Virus record (IMG/VR): IMGVR_UViG_3300034073_002120
From: a virus
Lineage: Duplodnaviria; Caudoviricetes
DNA length: 64,000 nucleotides
Reading direction: 5' to 3' (one strand)
Below the pieces are notes generated by a model. The model worked only from the letters and a program-made list of their open reading frames with translations, did no database searches and had not been told where the DNA came from. Shown here one piece after another: positions 39,285-56,161 of the stretch (positions are counted from its first letter, which is position 1; each line of letters starts with the position of its first letter). The translations under genes and the position numbers were made by a program.

Positions 39285-40907
<1,623 letters not shown>

Positions 40908-44645: not shown

Positions 44646-46283
44646 TTATGGTTTATAGAAAACAAAGATTGGTTCAAACTTATATGCTTTACCATCATGT
44701 TTTACTGCGTTTTTAATACCTGTCTTAGTTGGGTCTAATCCCACCATTCTAGTCATCAACATCTTCAACTTACCTTTGTACTCACATCCCAATTCTTTAA
44801 GAATATCGATTGAATCTTGCTCTAATGCATAGTAAGTATCTTTACCGATTTTAATATCTGCAATATTCCAAAGAATGTATCTATCATTCTTCATATATTC
44901 GTAGATAGTTGTTAAAGTAGGACGTAAGAAATTATCTCTCCAATCATCATATTCACCATAAGCTTTGAAAGATTGATTCTCATCTTGTGAGTATTGTTCT
45001 CTATTAAAGTATGGAGGCGATGTGAAAGATATATCTAATTTACCTTTGTATTTTTGAAACTTAGGATTATGTTGAATTAACTCCGAACCATCTTGAAACA
45101 ACTCATATGTATTACCTTGTTTTTCTACATCAAAGAATTTGGTAAATGTTTCTGAAAAATCATCTACGCAATTATCATTATAGAATTTAGCTGCGTATTC
45201 ATAACGAGATATTCCCAACTCTTTAATAAAATTATCAGGGTTAGGGTCAGTTCCCACATAATGAGTTTTCTTTCTACTACTCATTGCACCTAAGATTCTA
45301 CCACCCCATCCACTTGATGAATCGTAAATATGAAGAGGTTCATCTTGTTCGATGTGTGATGTATAATTTTCGTAAATCCACTTAGCAGTTAATGCAGGGA
45401 AATTTACTGCAGGTTGTCCACAACTTAAACGAAATACTTGTAAGATTTTTGGGAATATACCAACTGTCTTATCATACCAACGAATTAGATAATAAAACTT
45501 TTTAGTTGTTTTACCATCTGCAAGTGTCATATGGTCTTCAATTGATTTAACGTTAGACATTTGAGTTGGGTTTAACCATCCCTTATCTACACATTCTTGT
45601 AATTGTTCTGCGTTTAAGTAAAGATTACCAAATCCAATATATTGTTCGTTAATAGTTCCGTAATTATCAATAGTATCTTCTTTTACTTTTGCAATTACAA
45701 TATCTAAATCAGAATGTTTACCTATAAAGATTTTACCTTCATATACTTTCTGAATGAACTCTACACCAGTTTCACCATCCCAAAATTCGTTCTCATCTTT
45801 TTTATTTACAATAGAACGTGACCAGGAATACATAGAATCTCTCTTAACTGCTCTACGCATGATTTTTACGAACACATCTTCTAAATTCGGGTCAGAAAAG
45901 TGGTCGTAAATAGATAATCCACCATCAGCAGATTTTCCAATTGAAATTTTAGTTTTCAACATCGTAGGGAAAAACTGATTGATTGCCGATGCATCCTTAT
46001 TAAAGTTTTGGATAATACCTAATGATTCTTCATCACCGGTTAAATCTTTTTGTAGGAAATCGCAATCATTTCCTTTTAATTTCTTAAAAGATTCGATAAT
46101 ACCATCCTTATCTTTACCGATAACAGGAGGTACACCATCTTCATCCCATTGCTTAGTTACTTCTTTACGCAATAACTTAGCCCAATTAATGAACTCATCA
46201 TCAGTCATTTGTAGTAACTGATGATAAGTTCTATTGGATTGGAATTCAGAAAATTTTGAACGTTCGTAATAGTATTTCGTCAT
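44646..46283 (-). CDS. SAM-dependent amino-methyltransferase-like protein (motif I before SPPY)
   Basis: YDSSSGWGGRILG (motif I), GTDPN, DISFTSPPYFNREQYS (motif IV), WNIADI. Confidence 0.75.
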   Translation of the reverse strand: MTKYYYERSKFSEFQSNRTYHQLLQMTDDEFINWAKLLRKEVTKQWDEDGVPPVIGKDKDGIIESFKKLKGNDCDFLQKDLTGDEESLGIIQNFNKDASAINQFFPTMLKTKISIGKSADGGLSIYDHFSDPNLEDVFVKIMRRAVKRDSMYSWSRSIVNKKDENEFWDGETGVEFIQKVYEGKIFIGKHSDLDIVIAKVKEDTIDNYGTINEQYIGFGNLYLNAEQLQECVDKGWLNPTQMSNVKSIEDHMTLADGKTTKKFYYLIRWYDKTVGIFPKILQVFRLSCGQPAVNFPALTAKWIYENYTSHIEQDEPLHIYDSSSGWGGRILGAMSSRKKTHYVGTDPNPDNFIKELGISRYEYAAKFYNDNCVDDFSETFTKFFDVEKQGNTYELFQDGSELIQHNPKFQKYKGKLDISFTSPPYFNREQYSQDENQSFKAYGEYDDWRDNFLRPTLTTIYEYMKNDRYILWNIADIKIGKDTYYALEQDSIDILKELGCEYKGKLKMLMTRMVGLDPTKTGIKNAVKHDGKAYKFEPIFVFYKP

Positions 46284-51881: not shown

Positions 51882-52721
51882 TTAAAATTTGTAAATTCCA
51901 CCCACATTCCAGAATAAAATAGTACCCTCAATTTGGTCTATATTTTCTTCTAACCATTTCCATTGTTTTATATCCCAAAATTGGTTACAAGGGAATGGGG
52001 CTGAATATCCTTCTATTCTATCCTCAAAAAGATACTCCGATTTTCGTATGTTTATGGGAATTGGAATACCACTTTTTTTAAGGGTCTTTTTGATTGAACT
52101 TTCAGATGATACACAAGTTGTCCAAACCTTCTTTTTAACATCAGGAAAAAACTCTTTAAGTTCTTCTCTATAATATCCTCTCACAAGACCGGATAGGGTT
52201 ACTCCACTACCAGATGATACTACTAAATTATCAAAATGTGCAAATGGTTGAATTCTTTCTGCAAGATAATCTTTGTAAAAATCGTGGTCAAACGCATAAG
52301 GTAGCATTTGCCAACCATTTTCTCTTGCTTGACCTCTAAGTGAATTATACATAATCTGCATCATATTAGGTCTGATTGGATTTAGATGTGTTTTTGGATA
52401 CATCTCTTTAATCAAACCCAAATACTCTTGCGATATTTTTTTAGAATCTGGATGTGATACATAAAATTCAATATCTAATTCTTCACATATTGCTGCAAGT
52501 GCCCATCCAGTCCAACTGCCATCTACCGAAAGGTGGGTTAGTGGTTTTGAAGGGTCTACATATTTTTTAACCAATTCATATAATGCTGCTATCTTACCCC
52601 ACGGCGGTAATGTTATACCATCACCCATCAAATCATCTCTTTTTACCCAAACCTCTCTTCCTTTAATGTGATAAAGTTCTAAGGGAGTATCTTCATTTAA
52701 TCCTTTTAATCTTACATCCAT
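51882..52721 (-). CDS. Fold-type-II PLP-dependent enzyme (ACC deaminase / D-cysteine desulfhydrase-like, divergent)
   Basis: TPLE...VWVKRDDL...PPWGKI (candidate Schiff-base Lys); VVSSGSGVT phosphate loop. Confidence 0.7.
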   Translation of the reverse strand: MDVRLKGLNEDTPLELYHIKGREVWVKRDDLMGDGITLPPWGKIAALYELVKKYVDPSKPLTHLSVDGSWTGWALAAICEELDIEFYVSHPDSKKISQEYLGLIKEMYPKTHLNPIRPNMMQIMYNSLRGQARENGWQMLPYAFDHDFYKDYLAERIQPFAHFDNLVVSSGSGVTLSGLVRGYYREELKEFFPDVKKKVWTTCVSSESSIKKTLKKSGIPIPINIRKSEYLFEDRIEGYSAPFPCNQFWDIKQWKWLEENIDQIEGTILFWNVGGIYKF

Positions 52722-54217
52722 TTTTGAAATCCTCCTCCATTTGATACTAATTCTCCTTTCATATTTCGGTGGGAGAACCCGTGAATTTTTTCGAAATTAT
52801 CACCGATTACATTTATCATCTTTTTTCTTTTTTTGAAATTGATGTTAGGGTCATTTAAAATAATTTCTTCAATATATTGTTTAAAATTTGTTCCTTTTTG
52901 GAATGCTCGTTTCTCTTGGTCTAATATCTCATCTGGTAACTTACCTCTAAATCCATCTGCAAGTGGTAATTTCCATTGTCCACCTTTACACAAATACTCA
53001 TCGGTAAGATTCGTAGTATAATTTAGAAAATCAGTATCAAAGAATGGACATCTTAATTCGATTGTTCCATAATTCATAAAGATTGTATTGCCTCTTAGTA
53101 AGTTTCCGTAATATTGTTTTTCAAATAATTTCTTACGAACATCACTCCAATCAGGTTTCTTACTAAACATACGGAAAGTTCCATATGAACCATAACTTTC
53201 ATCACTACCCTCACCACTAAATGCTACTTTGATTCCATCCAACGCCATTTGTTCTGCGATAAATGATTGTAGAATACCAACCTCCATTTGAACGGTCGAT
53301 GGATATTCGATTACTCTAATCGAATCTAAGAAACGTTGTTTGATGATTTCATCATTTTTGGGAACAAATACTTCAACCAATTCTACTCCCAAATACTTTG
53401 CACACACTCTTGCTTTTTGTAAATCTTTTGATGTTTCATCAAATGCAATTGTGTATGCTTTTAAGTTAGGGATTCGTTGGGATAGAAGATAAGTAATTAC
53501 AGCAGAATCAATACCACCACTAAGTGATGTTGCAATTGGTACATCGGATAATAATCTCTTATCTACTGCTCTTTCTAATAATTTGAATGTAGTTTCTGCT
53601 ACCTCTTCATGTGATGTAACCTTTGTTGGTTCTGATGAAAATTGAAAATAAAAGTTTTCGTTTATTGTAATCTTATCAGTATCCAAATCAATTTCAACCA
53701 AACTATTTTTAGGTACAAATTTAATTTCGGATGTTTTATGTTGTGTAGTGATTGATTTTAATTCACTTGCAACTATATAATTGTTTGAATTGTAAATATA
53801 AAGTGGTAATTTACCTACCCAATCTCTCGATAATAATAATTTGTTATTATCATAAATAATGAATGAAAACATACCATCTAACCTCTTCAATTCACCCTCT
53901 TTATATAAGAAAAGAATGATTTCAGAATCCGAATTTGATTTAAAGGTATAACCTCTTTCTTCGTATTCTTTACGCAATTGAGGATAATTCCATATCTCAC
54001 CATTTACTACTAATTGAATACCATCAAATTCCATCGGTTGATTACCTAATGGTGATGTATCGTTGATTGATAAACGATTGTGACCTAATATGATATGTTT
54101 ATCACCATATTGGAATTCTCTAATTCCTCTATTATCTCTTCCGCGATGTTCTATCGCTTCCAACATTTCATTTACTTCATCTCTTTTATATCCTATGGTT
54201 GCTACGATTCCACACAT
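52712..54217 (-). CDS. Asparagine-synthase-like (AsnB) glutamine amidotransferase / ATP pyrophosphatase
   Basis: MCGI (Ntn Cys), HRG, GHNRLSIND, QPM, NGEIWNY, SDSE, SLSGGIDS, SGEGSDE, ELRCPFFD. Confidence 0.9.
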   Translation of the reverse strand: MCGIVATIGYKRDEVNEMLEAIEHRGRDNRGIREFQYGDKHIILGHNRLSINDTSPLGNQPMEFDGIQLVVNGEIWNYPQLRKEYEERGYTFKSNSDSEIILFLYKEGELKRLDGMFSFIIYDNNKLLLSRDWVGKLPLYIYNSNNYIVASELKSITTQHKTSEIKFVPKNSLVEIDLDTDKITINENFYFQFSSEPTKVTSHEEVAETTFKLLERAVDKRLLSDVPIATSLSGGIDSAVITYLLSQRIPNLKAYTIAFDETSKDLQKARVCAKYLGVELVEVFVPKNDEIIKQRFLDSIRVIEYPSTVQMEVGILQSFIAEQMALDGIKVAFSGEGSDESYGSYGTFRMFSKKPDWSDVRKKLFEKQYYGNLLRGNTIFMNYGTIELRCPFFDTDFLNYTTNLTDEYLCKGGQWKLPLADGFRGKLPDEILDQEKRAFQKGTNFKQYIEEIILNDPNINFKKRKKMINVIGDNFEKIHGFSHRNMKGELVSNGGGFQKWM

Positions 54218-54218
54218 A

Positions 54219-54917
54219 TTATCTATTTAATACTTCTAATAACTTATGAGTTTTTTTAGTTTCATCATTCATTTTACCGATATGACAAGAACAAGCTAAA
54301 ACTGATACTTTTTCTAATTCCATATCACTTTCTTTTGCTAAGAACTTACCCATCTCTACTAATGCAGTATAATCTGCATAACCTGATTTAGATACTCTAT
54401 TTGAACGAATGATTGATGTTAGGTAGATTTTACCATTACGAGGTTTAATATCGATTGCTAACATACAAGGTTGTGAATACGGATTTCGTGCATCTCTACT
54501 CGGGTCAAAGATAATCAATTCACATCTTTTAACTGCTTTACCAGTCTTTAAGATTTTGATTACATTCTCTACCTGATTGAAAGTTCCTTGCCACGAAACC
54601 ATTCTACCCCAATATGAATCGTGCCATTTATCTTTGATGAATTTATATTCTAACCCTTCCTCTGCTTGAAAGAATGGAGAATCCGAAACAAATGGTTGTG
54701 GTTCTAAGAATGTTACGGTCTTTGCGTAATCAATTCTATCATCACCCATAATCTCTCTAAAATGAGGGTCAAACCAATCATCAGATTCAAACTTTGTGAT
54801 TTCGGTCATCACATTTAATTCTTCGGTTAAATCACCTACTTTTACTCCGTTTTGGATAAGATGTTTAGATACTTTTACCCATGCATCGCCAGGAGATGTT
54901 GCTTCTATTACTGTCAT
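54219..54917 (-). CDS. Divergent thymidylate-synthase-fold enzyme (dCMP hydroxymethylase-like)
   Basis: YWGR, NQVENVI..LK, catalytic QPC, RSNRVSKSGYADY, CHI. Confidence 0.8.
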   Translation of the reverse strand: MTVIEATSPGDAWVKVSKHLIQNGVKVGDLTEELNVMTEITKFESDDWFDPHFREIMGDDRIDYAKTVTFLEPQPFVSDSPFFQAEEGLEYKFIKDKWHDSYWGRMVSWQGTFNQVENVIKILKTGKAVKRCELIIFDPSRDARNPYSQPCMLAIDIKPRNGKIYLTSIIRSNRVSKSGYADYTALVEMGKFLAKESDMELEKVSVLACSCHIGKMNDETKKTHKLLEVLNR

Positions 54918-54928
54918 ATTATTTAATT

Positions 54929-56161
54929 TTATAATTTACGAAAAATCCATATCGGTTCACAAAACGTTTTATCTTTTGCTTCTTCGTTCTTTTTCAGTTC
55001 TTCTTCGGAATATCTTTCTTCATCACCCTCTATAATCATTCCTGCCCCTGCAGAACCCGGTCTTTTCGCCATTTCCATACCCAAACATCCCTCGTAATGT
55101 GCACCTTCTAGAGTGGAAATAAAATCGTTCATAGGATTAGTGATTTCTTGTTGACCTTTACCATCACCTTTTGAGGATGCATATACATCTGCAATGTTCA
55201 CTGCTAAGTAACCACCTTTCTTAATAGTTGGCCATACATTAGCAATAGTTTTATGTAAGAAATTTTTATTCCAATCATCAATTGTTTTATATCGTATCCA
55301 ACTTTGAGTATCATCATATGAATACCTTTCTACGTTGAAATATGGTGGCGAACTGAATACAATATCAAAGTATTCGTTATACTCACTCAAATCCAAATCT
55401 TCTGCTGGTGATTCATAAAATGTTGATTTCTTTTCAGTTTCAAAGAATCCATTATTCTTTTCATAGAAATCCGCTTGTTGTCTATAAATTGGATGATTTT
55501 CTTTACGAGGGTCAATACCTACATAATGTTCTCCGTATTCTGATGCATAAAATCCACATAATCTATCACCCCATCCAGCTGAAATATCTAATACATTCTT
55601 TGCTTGAACGAAATCATATAATGCCTTTGCAACGTTTGGTTTAAATTGGGAACAAATGTATTTTCGCAAAGATAAACAAGTTCGTAATGTAGTATTACTA
55701 ACTTCATCGAATTTTAGAGTGTACATACCACCCATAAGTGAGAACATAAAATCAGGATTATTCCAAGTTCTATACGGCCCAGGTGAAACTGTGCCATCTA
55801 CACTCCATCGATTTGCTTGTTGAAAATAATTTGAGGCAGGATTACCAGTGTTTAATCTTCTAACGAATTGTTGTTTACCTTGAAACTCAAATGGATATCG
55901 AGATTCAGATGCCTTTCGTGGCACCCATGCTCCTTCGGTAAATAATTCATGCCAACGAATACCTTTTAGTTTAAGATATTCATTTCTTGCTTCTTCTTCG
56001 GAAATTGGAGCATATGGGATTTCGTATGTTGCTGCAACTTTTGCAAGAGATTCTTTTACATCTTCTCTATCGAAAGTTTTCTTAATATACTCCCATTCCT
56101 CATTACCGATAAAGAGATACGGAGTCATTCCGTAAAACTTATCAAAGTATTCTAAATACAT
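54929..56161 (-). CDS. SAM-dependent amino-methyltransferase-like protein (paralog-like of 44646..46283)
   Basis: LDISAGWGDRL, GIDP, DIVFSSPPYFNVERYS, VNIADV. Confidence 0.75.
   Translation of the reverse strand: MYLEYFDKFYGMTPYLFIGNEEWEYIKKTFDREDVKESLAKVAATYEIPYAPISEEEARNEYLKLKGIRWHELFTEGAWVPRKASESRYPFEFQGKQQFVRRLNTGNPASNYFQQANRWSVDGTVSPGPYRTWNNPDFMFSLMGGMYTLKFDEVSNTTLRTCLSLRKYICSQFKPNVAKALYDFVQAKNVLDISAGWGDRLCGFYASEYGEHYVGIDPRKENHPIYRQQADFYEKNNGFFETEKKSTFYESPAEDLDLSEYNEYFDIVFSSPPYFNVERYSYDDTQSWIRYKTIDDWNKNFLHKTIANVWPTIKKGGYLAVNIADVYASSKGDGKGQQEITNPMNDFISTLEGAHYEGCLGMEMAKRPGSAGAGMIIEGDEERYSEEELKKNEEAKDKTFCEPIWIFRKL

What the first reader, a model, noticed from the sequence alone, without database searches (positions are those of the whole stretch)
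54219..54917. TS-fold enzyme has the cytosine-specificity Asp but has lost the folate-binding Asp and the sugar-binding Tyr
Seen in sequence: the signature reads RSNRVSKSGYADY and the later motif reads SCHIG. Established: in E. coli ThyA (RSCDVFLGLPFN), Asn177 lies 11 residues after the Arg and selects dUMP. T4 dCMP hydroxymethylase (RSNDVVFGFRNDY) has Asp there and selects dCMP. The Asp of RSxD (ThyA D169) contacts the folate pterin, and the HxY motif (H207/Y209) binds the deoxyribose 3'-OH. In this protein position +11 is Asp followed by Tyr (T4-like), RSxD has become RSNR, and HxY has become HIG. The catalytic PC Cys is kept. Inference: this is a dCMP/CMP-activating enzyme that may not use methylene-THF and may instead add an electrophile made by the neighbouring enzymes, or act as a hydroxylase.
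Basis: partly seen in the sequence, partly recalled or inferred. Interest (0 to 1): 0.8.

Follow-up and report, generated by a model that had tools for sequence, protein, structure and literature searches.

The report
Divergent phage thymidylate-synthase-like cytosine modifier
A large uncultured phage has a normal thymidylate synthase plus a second, remodelled copy that sits in a conserved four-gene operon, so it probably starts synthesis of a cytosine DNA modification that nobody has described chemically.

Summary
ORF 54219-54917 (-) is a 232-aa thymidylate-synthase (TS) fold protein (AF2 pLDDT 95.8). It keeps the catalytic Pro-Cys, the Arg-Ser and the His. It has Asp at the N177 position, as the cytosine-specific enzymes do. 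It has Arg where ThyA has the folate-activating D169, and Gly where ThyA has Y209.

These changes define a monophyletic clade (100/99 support) inside the short, methanogen-type TS radiation. In the clade the D169 position is always Arg or Ala. Every short relative outside the clade that I aligned keeps Asp there.

A near-identical complete 287-kb genome carries a canonical ThyA elsewhere, so this protein is not the phage's dTMP synthase.

In almost all related loci the gene sits with three partners:
- an SPPY-motif SAM-methyltransferase-like protein, often in several paralogs;
- an asparagine-synthetase/PP-loop amide ligase, 33% identical to the ligase in a CmoA/CmoX cluster of a cultured phage;
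- a homolog of phage M6 gp52, the PLP decarboxylase that trims amino acids attached to DNA bases, or instead a B12-type radical SAM enzyme.

The nearest solved structures are the flavin-dependent dCMP 5-hydroxylase AfhB and MilA.

Best reading: a dCMP C5-modifying enzyme that does not use methylene-THF and starts an uncharacterised cytosine hypermodification. The group it adds is not known. This scan's notes record what looks like the same module in other genomes.

The parts
54219..54917 (-). TS232: short TS-fold enzyme of 232 aa, the subject of the finding
   Evidence: ORF. Pfam TS 20.5 bits, below the gathering score. TIGR03283 67.5 bits against a cut-off of 174.55. AF2 pLDDT 95.8. Z 20.7 to AfhB.
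54465..54470 (-). Pro150-Cys151, equivalent to the catalytic P145-C146 of E. coli ThyA
   Evidence: Invariant in the clade; aligned to C146.
54369..54407 (-). Motif RSNRVSKSGYADY (residues 171-183): R171/S172 = R166/S167, R174 = D169, D182 = N177
54276..54290 (-). Motif SCHIG (residues 210-214): H212 = H207, G214 = Y209
   Evidence: H212 is invariant in the clade; position 214 varies (G/A/R/K/H/S/F).
54929..56161 (-). MT410: SAM-methyltransferase-fold protein with the motifs D-x-S-x-GWGDR and F(T/S)SPPYF and a family-specific N-terminal domain of about 170 aa. It lies directly upstream of TS232.
   Evidence: Weak Pfam methyltransferase hits and phrog_12517. Invariant motifs. AF2 pLDDT 90.8. 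Foldseek best matches are Trm11 and other class I MTases. Found next to TS232 in 44 of 45 loci.
52712..54217 (-). AsnB501: glutamine amidotransferase plus asparagine-synthetase/PP-loop domain. It starts 1 nt after the TS232 stop.
   Evidence: Pfam Asn_synthase 1e-39 and GATase_7. TIGR01536 289.5 bits. 33% identity over 455 aa (E 2e-76) to gp124 of Streptomyces phage TurkishDelight, which lies between a CmoX-like and a CmoA-like gene. A PP-loop partner is present in 44 of 45 loci.
51882..52721 (-). PLP279: fold-type II PLP enzyme, homolog of M6 gp52. It overlaps the end of AsnB501 by 10 nt.
   Evidence: phrog_7093 2.5e-25. BLASTP E 5e-26 and 26% identity over the full length to M6 gp52, with K43 aligned to gp52 K36. 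K43 is invariant in 57 of 57 unique homologs. Present in 44 of 45 loci.
44646..46283 (-). MT545: second paralog of the SPPY methyltransferase-like family, 8 kb downstream. In other lineages (L060-L076) its ortholog is the copy adjacent to the TS-like gene.
   Evidence: phrog_12517.

Best explanation
TS232 is a cytosine-nucleotide (most likely dCMP) C5-modifying enzyme. It keeps the TS catalytic core: the Cys that attacks C6, the Arg-Ser that holds the phosphate, and an Asp that reads the cytosine N3/N4 face. It has given up methylene-tetrahydrofolate. It makes the first, nucleotide-level intermediate of an uncharacterised phage cytosine hypermodification.

After the modified dC enters DNA, the three conserved partners would finish the base:
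- the asparagine-synthetase/PP-loop enzyme adenylates a carboxyl group on the appended side chain and converts it to an amide;
- the M6 gp52-like PLP enzyme decarboxylates an alpha-amino-acid function;
- the SPPY methyltransferase-like paralogs alkylate an amino or amide nitrogen, or the N4 of the base.

Among the non-folate options I favour direct installation of a carbon side chain that already carries a carboxylate, doing on the nucleotide what CmoX does on DNA. This preference over hydroxylation is slight.

Shown here: the fold, the residue register, the clade-specific loss of D169 and Y209, the second canonical ThyA, the gene linkage and the partner homologies. Inferred: the substrate, the lack of folate use, the order of steps and every chemical product.
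For: The fold and register are secure.

D169 is Arg or Ala in all 83 clade loci but Asp in every short TS-like protein aligned from outside the clade and in T4 gp42, ThyA and MilA. The title of PDB 1bjg states that the D169N mutant does not promote opening of the cofactor's imidazolidine ring.

The clade is monophyletic (100/99) and separate from RB69 gp48, T4 gp42 and ThyA.

A canonical ThyA (308.5 bits) lies elsewhere in the near-identical complete 287-kb genome.

The operon is tight: an 11-nt gap, a 1-nt gap and a 10-nt overlap.

Co-occurrence in 45 loci with at least 5 kb on both sides: MT-like 44, PP-loop 44, PLP 44. The linkage holds across 12 TS lineages defined at 70% identity.

AsnB501's best cultured-phage homolog is the ligase between a CmoX-like gene (SPPC motif, dcm family) and a CmoA-like gene. 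SpCmoY was shown to adenylate and amidate 5-carboxymethylcytosine in DNA (PMC12783734).

PLP279 is a full-length homolog of M6 gp52, which was shown to decarboxylate an amino acid attached to a DNA base (PMC8989533).

Short TS-likes that keep D169 (P0147, P0150) lie in cellular contexts without these partners.
Against: No chemistry was tested. The nearest solved structure is a hydroxylase, not an alkylating enzyme. No donor of a carboxyl-bearing group was identified: neither a CmoA nor a CmoX homolog is in the window, the related loci or the complete genome. An amide ligase and a decarboxylase would compete for a single carboxylate, so the scheme needs a side chain with two carboxyls or two different substrates, which is unexplained. 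In the complete genome these Pfam models found no thymidylate-kinase-type kinase, MazG pyrophosphatase or dCMP deaminase. The window avoids GATC completely (0 observed, 251 expected). Both points argue against wholesale replacement of dC. AsnB501 scores above NCBIfam's cut-off for true asparagine synthase, so it could simply make asparagine.
Confidence: 0.35

Rival explanations
1. TS232 is a flavin- and O2-dependent dCMP 5-hydroxylase of the AfhB / RB69 gp48 kind. The 5-hydroxyl would then be alkylated on DNA by the SPPY methyltransferase-like enzymes, for example with the 3-amino-3-carboxypropyl group of SAM. The ligase and the decarboxylase would then trim that group.
For: AfhB (9iqc, 9iqu) is the top Foldseek and VIA match (E 1.5e-11; Z 20.7, rmsd 2.7 A over 196 residues). 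AfhB and gp48 are also short (217-238 aa), carry Asp at N177, have lost D169 (to Asn) and have lost Y209 (to Phe). The published work shows that a TS fold can exchange folate for a flavin. A PLP decarboxylase acting on an O-linked amino acid has a precedent in ViI gp226.
Against: The published diagnostic D169N is not met: the position is Arg or Ala and varies, so it is not a conserved cofactor contact. The L143E found in gp48 is not met (Ser, variable). MilA scores as well as AfhB (Z 20.3 against 20.7; profile E 1.7e-08 against 2.3e-08). In the tree the clade is separated from RB69 gp48 by a 96/84 branch and is nested among short TS-likes that keep D169. No RB69 arabinosylation protein has a homolog in the window.
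Confidence: 0.25
2. TS232 still uses methylene-THF or another one-carbon pterin carrier, bound in a different way. It makes 5-hydroxymethyl- or 5-aminomethyl-dCMP, which is then elaborated.
For: The enzyme belongs to the TS superfamily. Its nearest sequence relatives are short TS-likes annotated as methanogen-type thymidylate synthases. MilA and T4 gp42, both folate-dependent, are close structural matches. An acidic residue aligns with E58, and Y94 is kept.
Against: D169 is lost in the whole clade and kept in every folate-type relative aligned. The enzymes known to elaborate a hydroxymethyl handle, the 5-hmdU DNA kinase and the amino acid:DNA transferase, were not found in the complete genome, although the control genomes could not validate those two searches. 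No DHFR was found.
Confidence: 0.15
3. TS232 uses the Cys-C6 adduct for chemistry other than C5 substitution, for example exchange of the N4 amino group (transamination at C4) to give an N4-substituted cytosine. That product would then be handled by the N4C-like TSPPY methyltransferase-like paralogs.
For: No cofactor would be needed, which fits an unconserved Arg/Ala at the D169 position. The partner methyltransferase-like family carries the F(T/S)SPPYF motif, which from my own knowledge is typical of N4-cytosine methyltransferases. Saturation of C5-C6 is known to activate C4 of cytosine (general knowledge of bisulfite and C5-methyltransferase side reactions).
Against: There is no precedent in the TS fold. 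This is inference only, with no supporting computation here.
Confidence: 0.07
4. TS232 is an ordinary (short-type) thymidylate synthase that makes dTMP.
For: JGI annotates relatives as 'thymidylate synthase'. There are weak Pfam and NCBIfam TS hits.
Against: Position N177 is Asp and D169 is lost. All scores are below the curated cut-offs. A canonical ThyA is present in the same genome. The gene is embedded in a conserved tailoring operon.
Confidence: 0.02

Closest known systems
AfhB of E. coli phage HY126 / RB69 gp48 / DLP3 gp80: flavin-dependent 5-hydroxy-dCMP synthases (PDB 9iqc, 9iqu; PMC13326640)
   Same: TS fold and short chain (about 217-238 aa). Catalytic Cys, Arg-Ser and His kept. Asp at N177. 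D169 lost and Y209 lost. Best structural match (Z 20.7). Phage enzyme that starts a cytosine hypermodification at the mononucleotide level.
   Different: 17% identity. The D169 position is Arg/Ala and variable, not the diagnostic Asn. L143 is Ser/variable, not Glu. It falls in a separate, well-supported clade. The partners are an amide ligase, a PLP decarboxylase and SPPY methyltransferase-like proteins, not arabinose-nucleotide enzymes and glycosyltransferases.
MilA (CMP 5-hydroxymethylase, PDB 5b6d/5jnh) and T4 gp42 (dCMP hydroxymethylase)
   Same: TS fold, Cys nucleophile and Asp at N177 giving cytosine specificity. MilA is the best sequence hit in the PDB and is tied with AfhB in structure (Z 20.3).
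   Different: Both keep D169 (RAND, RSND) and His-x-Tyr, and both use CH2-THF. TS232 has RSNR and His-Ile-Gly.
Methanogen-type short thymidylate synthases (NCBIfam TIGR03283) and related short TS-likes
   Same: The clade is nested within this radiation in the tree. They share the Y-x-x-R motif, the short N-terminal loop and the truncated C-terminus.
   Different: 67.5 bits against a cut-off of 174.55. The outgroup members keep D169. Those with known context sit beside dCTP deaminase or housekeeping genes, not beside tailoring enzymes.
CmoA/CmoX/CmoY of Synechococcus phage S-B43 (5-carboxymethylcytosine and its glycine amide; PMC12783734)
   Same: An asparagine-synthetase-family ATP-dependent ligase is linked to a cytosine-C5-modifying enzyme. 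AsnB501 is 33% identical to the GATase-bearing ligase in the CmoA/CmoX/ParB cluster of Streptomyces phage TurkishDelight.
   Different: There is no CmoA and no C5-methyltransferase-type CmoX. A TS-fold enzyme and an SPPY amino-methyltransferase-like protein take their places. tblastn with the AsnB501 ligase domain found no Synechococcus phage record in the phage collection.
Thymidine hypermodification clusters of phages M6, ViI, PaMx11 (PMC8989533)
   Same: A TS-family enzyme makes the nucleotide precursor. A gp52-type PLP decarboxylase is present (26% identity, E 5e-26, catalytic Lys aligned). Radical SAM enzymes appear as alternative or additional tailoring partners.
   Different: The base is cytosine, not uracil. 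No 5-hmdU DNA kinase and no amino acid:DNA transferase were found. The radical SAM partners are B12-type and unrelated to M6 gp53.

Membership tests
Thymidylate synthase ThyA (dUMP to dTMP, CH2-THF) | TS fold with the catalytic Cys in a Pro-Cys motif and the Arg-Ser phosphate binder | tested here: met
Thymidylate synthase ThyA (dUMP to dTMP, CH2-THF) | Asn at position 177 (uracil specificity) | tested here: not met
   Asp182 aligns there.
Thymidylate synthase ThyA (dUMP to dTMP, CH2-THF) | Asp169 contacting and activating the folate | tested here: not met
   Arg174 here; Arg or Ala in all 83 clade loci.
Thymidylate synthase ThyA (dUMP to dTMP, CH2-THF) | Score above the curated family cut-off | tested here: not met
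   Pfam 20.5 bits against 24.3. TIGR03283 67.5 bits against 174.55.
Thymidylate synthase ThyA (dUMP to dTMP, CH2-THF) | Catalyses dTMP synthesis / complements thyA | not testable with these tools
   A canonical ThyA elsewhere in the genome makes this role unnecessary.
Folate-dependent cytosine hydroxymethylases (T4 gp42, MilA) | Asp at position 177 | tested here: met
Folate-dependent cytosine hydroxymethylases (T4 gp42, MilA) | Asp169 kept and an acidic residue at position 143 | tested here: not met
   Arg174. Ser148, which varies in the clade (S/R/G/K/L).
Flavin-dependent 5-hydroxy-dCMP synthases (AfhB, RB69 gp48) | Published signature: D169N together with N177D | tested here: not met
   N177D is met, but position 169 is Arg/Ala, not Asn.
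Flavin-dependent 5-hydroxy-dCMP synthases (AfhB, RB69 gp48) | Closest structural similarity | tested here: inconclusive
   AfhB is top (Z 20.7) but tied with MilA (Z 20.3).
Flavin-dependent 5-hydroxy-dCMP synthases (AfhB, RB69 gp48) | Groups with known members in a phylogeny | tested here: not met
   A 96/84 branch separates RB69 gp48 from the clade, which is nested among D169-keeping short TS-likes (midpoint root only).
Flavin-dependent 5-hydroxy-dCMP synthases (AfhB, RB69 gp48) | Binds FMN/FAD and uses O2 | not testable with these tools
   Needs purified protein.
CmoA/CmoX/CmoY 5-carboxymethylcytosine system | Asparagine-synthetase-family ligase linked to the cytosine modifier | tested here: met
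   AsnB501 is 33% identical (E 2e-76) to the ligase of a CmoA/CmoX cluster. A PP-loop partner is present in 44 of 45 loci.
CmoA/CmoX/CmoY 5-carboxymethylcytosine system | Cx-SAM synthase CmoA and SPPC-motif C5-methyltransferase CmoX | tested here: not met
   No TIGR00740 match in the complete genome. No BLASTP match in the window or in the 83 loci.
M6/ViI-type pyrimidine hypermodification pathway | gp52-type PLP decarboxylase with the catalytic Lys | tested here: met
M6/ViI-type pyrimidine hypermodification pathway | 5-hmdU DNA kinase (PF18748) and amino acid:DNA transferase (PF18724) | tested here: inconclusive
   No match in the complete genome, but neither model matched any control genome either, so sensitivity is unverified. 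BLASTP of M6 gp51 and gp54 against the window found nothing.

The most novel reading that the evidence does not exclude
A TS-fold enzyme that uses neither a pterin nor a flavin. Its Cys-activated C5 carbanion attacks a different electrophile, such as a SAM-type sulfonium, an aldehyde or 2-oxo acid, or an imine. This puts a carboxyl- or amino-acid-bearing carbon chain directly on dCMP. The end product in DNA would be a new base, for example an amidated and/or decarboxylated and N-methylated C5-alkyl cytosine. It would occur in a widespread group of large aquatic phages.
Probability: 0.3. Interest if true: 0.85.

Novelty: new variant of a known kind. Interest (0 to 1): 0.68.

Why it matters
The TS superfamily was long thought to perform only folate-dependent one-carbon transfer. 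The 2025-2026 discovery of flavin-dependent dCMP hydroxylases showed that the fold can change cofactor. This clade lost the folate-activating Asp independently and has a different replacement signature (Arg/Ala plus an invariant S-K-S/A-G-Y loop), so it may be a third type of chemistry in the fold.

The clade is common: 228 protein clusters matched at E <= 0.001, and phage contigs carrying it reach 376 kb.

It is always wired to the same tailoring set, so it probably marks an undescribed DNA base. Such bases matter for phage resistance to restriction and CRISPR, for errors in metagenome sequencing and for enzyme tools. The operon is small (four genes) and can be tested directly by expression in E. 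coli and nucleoside LC-MS.

Tried and rejected
- Megablast of 10 kb around the gene against cultured phages found nothing. No cultured phage in the collection carries the clade; the tblastn hits to TS232 are only distant short TS-likes.
- No whole genome is held for the window. I used the 99%-identical IMG/VR record instead.
- The He et al. paper on AfhB is not in the library, so the flavin-contacting residues could not be compared.
- The radical SAM domain fused to a clade member (P0124) is not similar to M6 gp53 or to the window's own radical SAM gene. NCBIfam places the radical SAM partners among B12-binding radical SAM enzymes.
- tblastn of the AsnB501 ligase domain (E <= 1e-3) matched no Synechococcus phage record.
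- The RB69 arabinosylation proteins, T4 beta-glucosyltransferase, and M6 gp51, gp53, gp54 and gp55 have no BLASTP match in the window.
- Whether position 174 is Arg or Ala does not track with the partner type (PLP or radical SAM, GATase present or absent).
- The apparent 484-aa TS 'fusion' in L063 is a GIY-YIG homing-endonuclease ORF read through in frame, not a fusion.
- The promoter and terminator scan was no better than shuffled sequence.
- I considered that loss of the R21 loop means a non-nucleotide (DNA) substrate and dropped the idea. The aligned short TS-likes also lack an Arg at the R21 position, and the short TS-likes as a whole carry a conserved Arg in Y-x-x-R instead.
- The Atlas search added only 'TS family'.
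Full report
**What the window is.** All genes in the 64-kb, 30% G+C window lie on the minus strand. They include family B DNA polymerase, DnaB, UvsX, an exonuclease, RNR alpha and beta, thioredoxin, clamp loader and GroEL/GroES. This is a large phage. IMG/VR holds near-identical contigs of 287-289 kb. One of them (G001, 287,455 bp, CheckV 100%) served as the whole genome, because none is held for the window itself.

**The observation.** ORF 54219-54917 (-) encodes 232 aa with RSNRVSKSGYADY at residues 171-183 and SCHIG at 210-214.
- Pfam TS matches at 20.5 bits, below its gathering score.
- NCBIfam's methanogen-type TS model gives 67.5 bits against a cut-off of 174.55.
- The best PDB sequence hit is MilA.
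- An AF2 model built on 94 sequences has pLDDT 95.8.
- Foldseek puts the flavin-dependent dCMP hydroxylase AfhB (9iqc, 9iqu) first and MilA next.
- VIA-align gives Z 20.7 (AfhB), 20.3 (MilA) and 18.5 (L. casei TS), all at rmsd about 2.8 A over about 197 residues.

A MAFFT alignment with E. coli ThyA, T4 gp42 and RB69 gp48 fixes the register: C146=C151, R166/S167=R171/S172, D169=R174, N177=D182, H207=H212, Y209=G214, Y94=Y102. HMMER alignments to MilA and AfhB agree.

**It is a clade character, not one odd sequence.**
- An exhaustive search of 1.84 billion representatives found 14 clusters at E < 1e-30 (33-84% identity), then a long tail of short TS-like proteins.
- The word-index search found 228 near relatives, mostly from aquatic metagenomes.
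- In the close clade the invariant residues include P150, C151, R171, S172, K177, G179, Y180, D182 and H212.
- All 83 fetched loci read R-S-(N/Q/M)-(R/A)-x-S-K-(S/A)-G-Y-(A/G)-D-x.
- Every more distant short TS-like protein in the alignment keeps Asp at the D169 position, and most keep His-x-Tyr.
- A maximum-likelihood tree makes the D169-less clade monophyletic (100/99). It is nested among D169-keeping short TS-likes and separated by a 96/84 branch from ThyA, T4 gp42 and RB69 gp48.

On this midpoint-rooted tree, the loss of D169 here is independent of the D169N change in the Straboviridae hydroxylases.

**It is not the phage's thymidylate synthase.** The complete genome carries a canonical ThyA (308.5 bits) about 150 kb away. 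That ThyA has the standard residues at every position examined.

**Gene context.** The gene is tightly packed between MT410 (11-nt gap upstream) and AsnB501 (1-nt gap downstream). AsnB501 overlaps PLP279 by 10 nt. I built profiles from seeds and counted partners within 7 kb of the TS-like gene in the 45 loci that have at least 5 kb on both sides:

| Partner | Loci (of 45) |
|---|---|
| MT-like | 44 |
| PP-loop ligase | 44 |
| GATase domain on the ligase | 34 |
| PLP enzyme | 44 |

- The linkage holds across 12 TS lineages defined at 70% identity.
- Lineages without the PLP gene carry a B12-type radical SAM enzyme of about 450 aa. It is fused to the TS-like domain in P0124 and fused to an N6/N4 methyltransferase in L055. 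Two loci have both the PLP gene and the radical SAM gene.
- The MT-like gene is multiplied to 3-7 paralogs in some jumbo-phage contigs.
- Short TS-likes that keep D169 (P0147, P0150) lie beside housekeeping genes or dCTP deaminase, without these partners.

**What the partners are.**
- PLP279 aligns over its full length with phage M6 gp52 (26% identity, E 5e-26), and its invariant K43 falls on gp52 K36. gp52 was shown experimentally to decarboxylate an amino acid attached to thymine in DNA (PMC8989533).
- AsnB501 has an intact Cys2 glutaminase and an SGGxDS PP-loop.
- AsnB501's best homolog in a cultured phage (33% identity over 455 aa, E 2e-76) is gp124 of Streptomyces phage TurkishDelight. 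That gene lies between a dcm-family gene with an SPPC motif and a CmoA-like gene, next to two ParB genes.
- This is the arrangement described for the CmoA/CmoX/CmoY system. There the asparagine-synthetase homolog CmoY adenylates 5-carboxymethylcytosine in DNA and ligates an amine. The authors predict that a GATase-bearing subgroup makes the plain amide (PMC12783734).
- MT410 is a class I SAM-methyltransferase fold (pLDDT 90.8). Its invariant motifs are D-x-S-x-GWGDR and F(T/S)SPPYF, and its nearest structures include the m2G tRNA methyltransferase Trm11. The motif is of the amino-methyltransferase type. From my own knowledge, TSPPY is typical of N4-cytosine enzymes.

**What is missing.** Searches of the complete genome found none of the following:
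- amino acid:DNA transferase
- 5-hmdU DNA kinase
- CmoA
- dCMP deaminase
- MazG
- thymidylate kinase
- DHFR

The transferase and kinase models (PF18724, PF18748) matched no control genome either, so those two negatives are weak. No CmoA or CmoX homolog occurs in the window or in any related locus.

**Mechanism.** Established TS chemistry is that the Cys adds to C6, and C5 then becomes a nucleophile that attacks an electrophile held where the folate sits. D169 is needed to open the imidazolidine ring of CH2-THF (title of PDB 1bjg). D169 is kept by every folate-dependent relative examined.

The only TS clade known to have lost D169 uses a flavin and O2 to hydroxylate dCMP. In TS232 the position is Arg or Ala with no pattern, so it is not a conserved cofactor contact. 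I therefore judge canonical methylene-THF use unlikely (about 0.15).

The universal presence of a carboxylate-activating ligase and an amino-acid decarboxylase homolog means the mature side chain must at some stage carry carboxyl and alpha-amino functions. Both enzymes co-occur in nearly all loci. So either the group has two carboxyls, as aspartate and glutamate do, or the two enzymes act on two different groups.

My probabilities for the rival readings:

| Reading | Probability |
|---|---|
| TS232 puts a carboxyl-bearing carbon substituent on dCMP, taking the place of CmoX | 0.35 |
| TS232 is an AfhB-like hydroxylase whose product is O-alkylated by the MT-like enzymes | 0.25 |
| It still uses a one-carbon pterin | 0.15 |
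| C4 exchange chemistry | 0.07 |
| Ordinary thymidylate synthase | 0.02 |

The general statement is much firmer, at about 0.85. TS232 is a dedicated cytosine-nucleotide-modifying TS paralog that starts an uncharacterised hypermodification, and it is not a thymidylate synthase.

**A caution on extent.** The window contains no GATC (251 expected) and no GCGC, and it lacks several 6-bp palindromes. These Pfam models found no MazG-type pyrophosphatase and no thymidylate-kinase-type kinase. Together these points argue that dC is not wholly replaced. The modification may be partial or limited to certain sequence contexts, which would fit the multiplied MT-like paralogs.

**Novelty.** I found no paper describing this clade or operon in seven full-text searches. 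Notes from this scan record what looks like the same module in other genomes (e1-3506109, e1-5362744, e1-5362762). The first of these pointed me to the CmoY paper, which I then read and tested against the TurkishDelight cluster. I rate the finding a new variant of a known kind: a TS-superfamily enzyme that starts a phage base hypermodification, with a new active-site signature and a new partner set.

Noticed in passing
window:1-64000: GATC is totally avoided (0 observed, about 251 expected from a second-order model) and so is GCGC (0 observed, 10 expected). CTAG, GTAC and CATG are depleted to 0.27-0.40 of expectation. Six 6-bp palindromes are absent (GTATAC, GTTAAC, CTTAAG, CTATAG, GGTACC, TACGTA).
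   Followed up: partly
window:49928-51870: Three genes lie between PLP279 and the DNA polymerase: a 98-aa ORF, a 193-aa ORF and an N6/N4 DNA methyltransferase (PF01555, 1e-44). In relatives L001-L004 these are absent and PLP279 abuts the polymerase. Those relatives instead carry a 390-aa ABC-ATPase/GNAT-like gene between MT410 and the TS-like gene, and that gene is missing from the window.
   Followed up: partly
L077-L083 (e.g. L080:901-13587): The SPPY methyltransferase-like gene is multiplied to 3-7 diverged paralogs (33-37% identity to MT410) around the TS-like gene in phage contigs of 109-376 kb. The GATase domain of the ligase is absent in these contigs.
   Followed up: partly
L005:7088-9118 (protein P0124): A 676-aa natural fusion of the TS-like domain (RSNA variant) with a B12-type radical SAM domain. 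Its neighbours are a PP-loop-only ligase, an ATP-grasp-like protein and a 583-aa MT-like protein.
   Followed up: partly
L094:4127-9155 (Streptomyces phage TurkishDelight, NC_073473.1): This cultured phage carries ParB, ParB, a CmoX-like gene (SPPC motif), a GATase-bearing Asn-synthetase-like ligase and a CmoA-like gene at its genome end. It could be used to test the predicted 5-carbamoylmethylcytosine.
   Followed up: partly
window:34508-36450: An N-terminal-twitch radical SAM protein (NF033640, 322 bits) lies next to a 2OG-Fe(II) oxygenase (PF13640). They are unrelated to the radical SAM partners of the TS-like gene, and their function is unknown.
   Followed up: no
window:37177-37482 and 39285-40904: The phage encodes GroES (Cpn10) and GroEL. 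GroEL matches phrog_5725 at E 4.5e-178.
   Followed up: no
window:41006-44329: A 1107-aa ORF with no PHROG match lies between the GroEL gene and the MT545 paralog. An earlier scan note calls it a TonB-dependent receptor; I did not check this.
   Followed up: no
L063:9233-10000; L056:12190-12816: GIY-YIG homing-endonuclease genes are inserted directly next to the TS-like gene in two lineages. In L063 the endonuclease is read through in frame with the TS-like gene.
   Followed up: partly
window:21820-33320: The window holds a glycosyltransferase-rich block about 21 kb from the operon; one ORF there matches phrog_2170. No similarity was found to the RB69 DNA arabinosylation proteins or to T4 beta-glucosyltransferase. 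Whether the block acts on DNA is open.
   Followed up: partly
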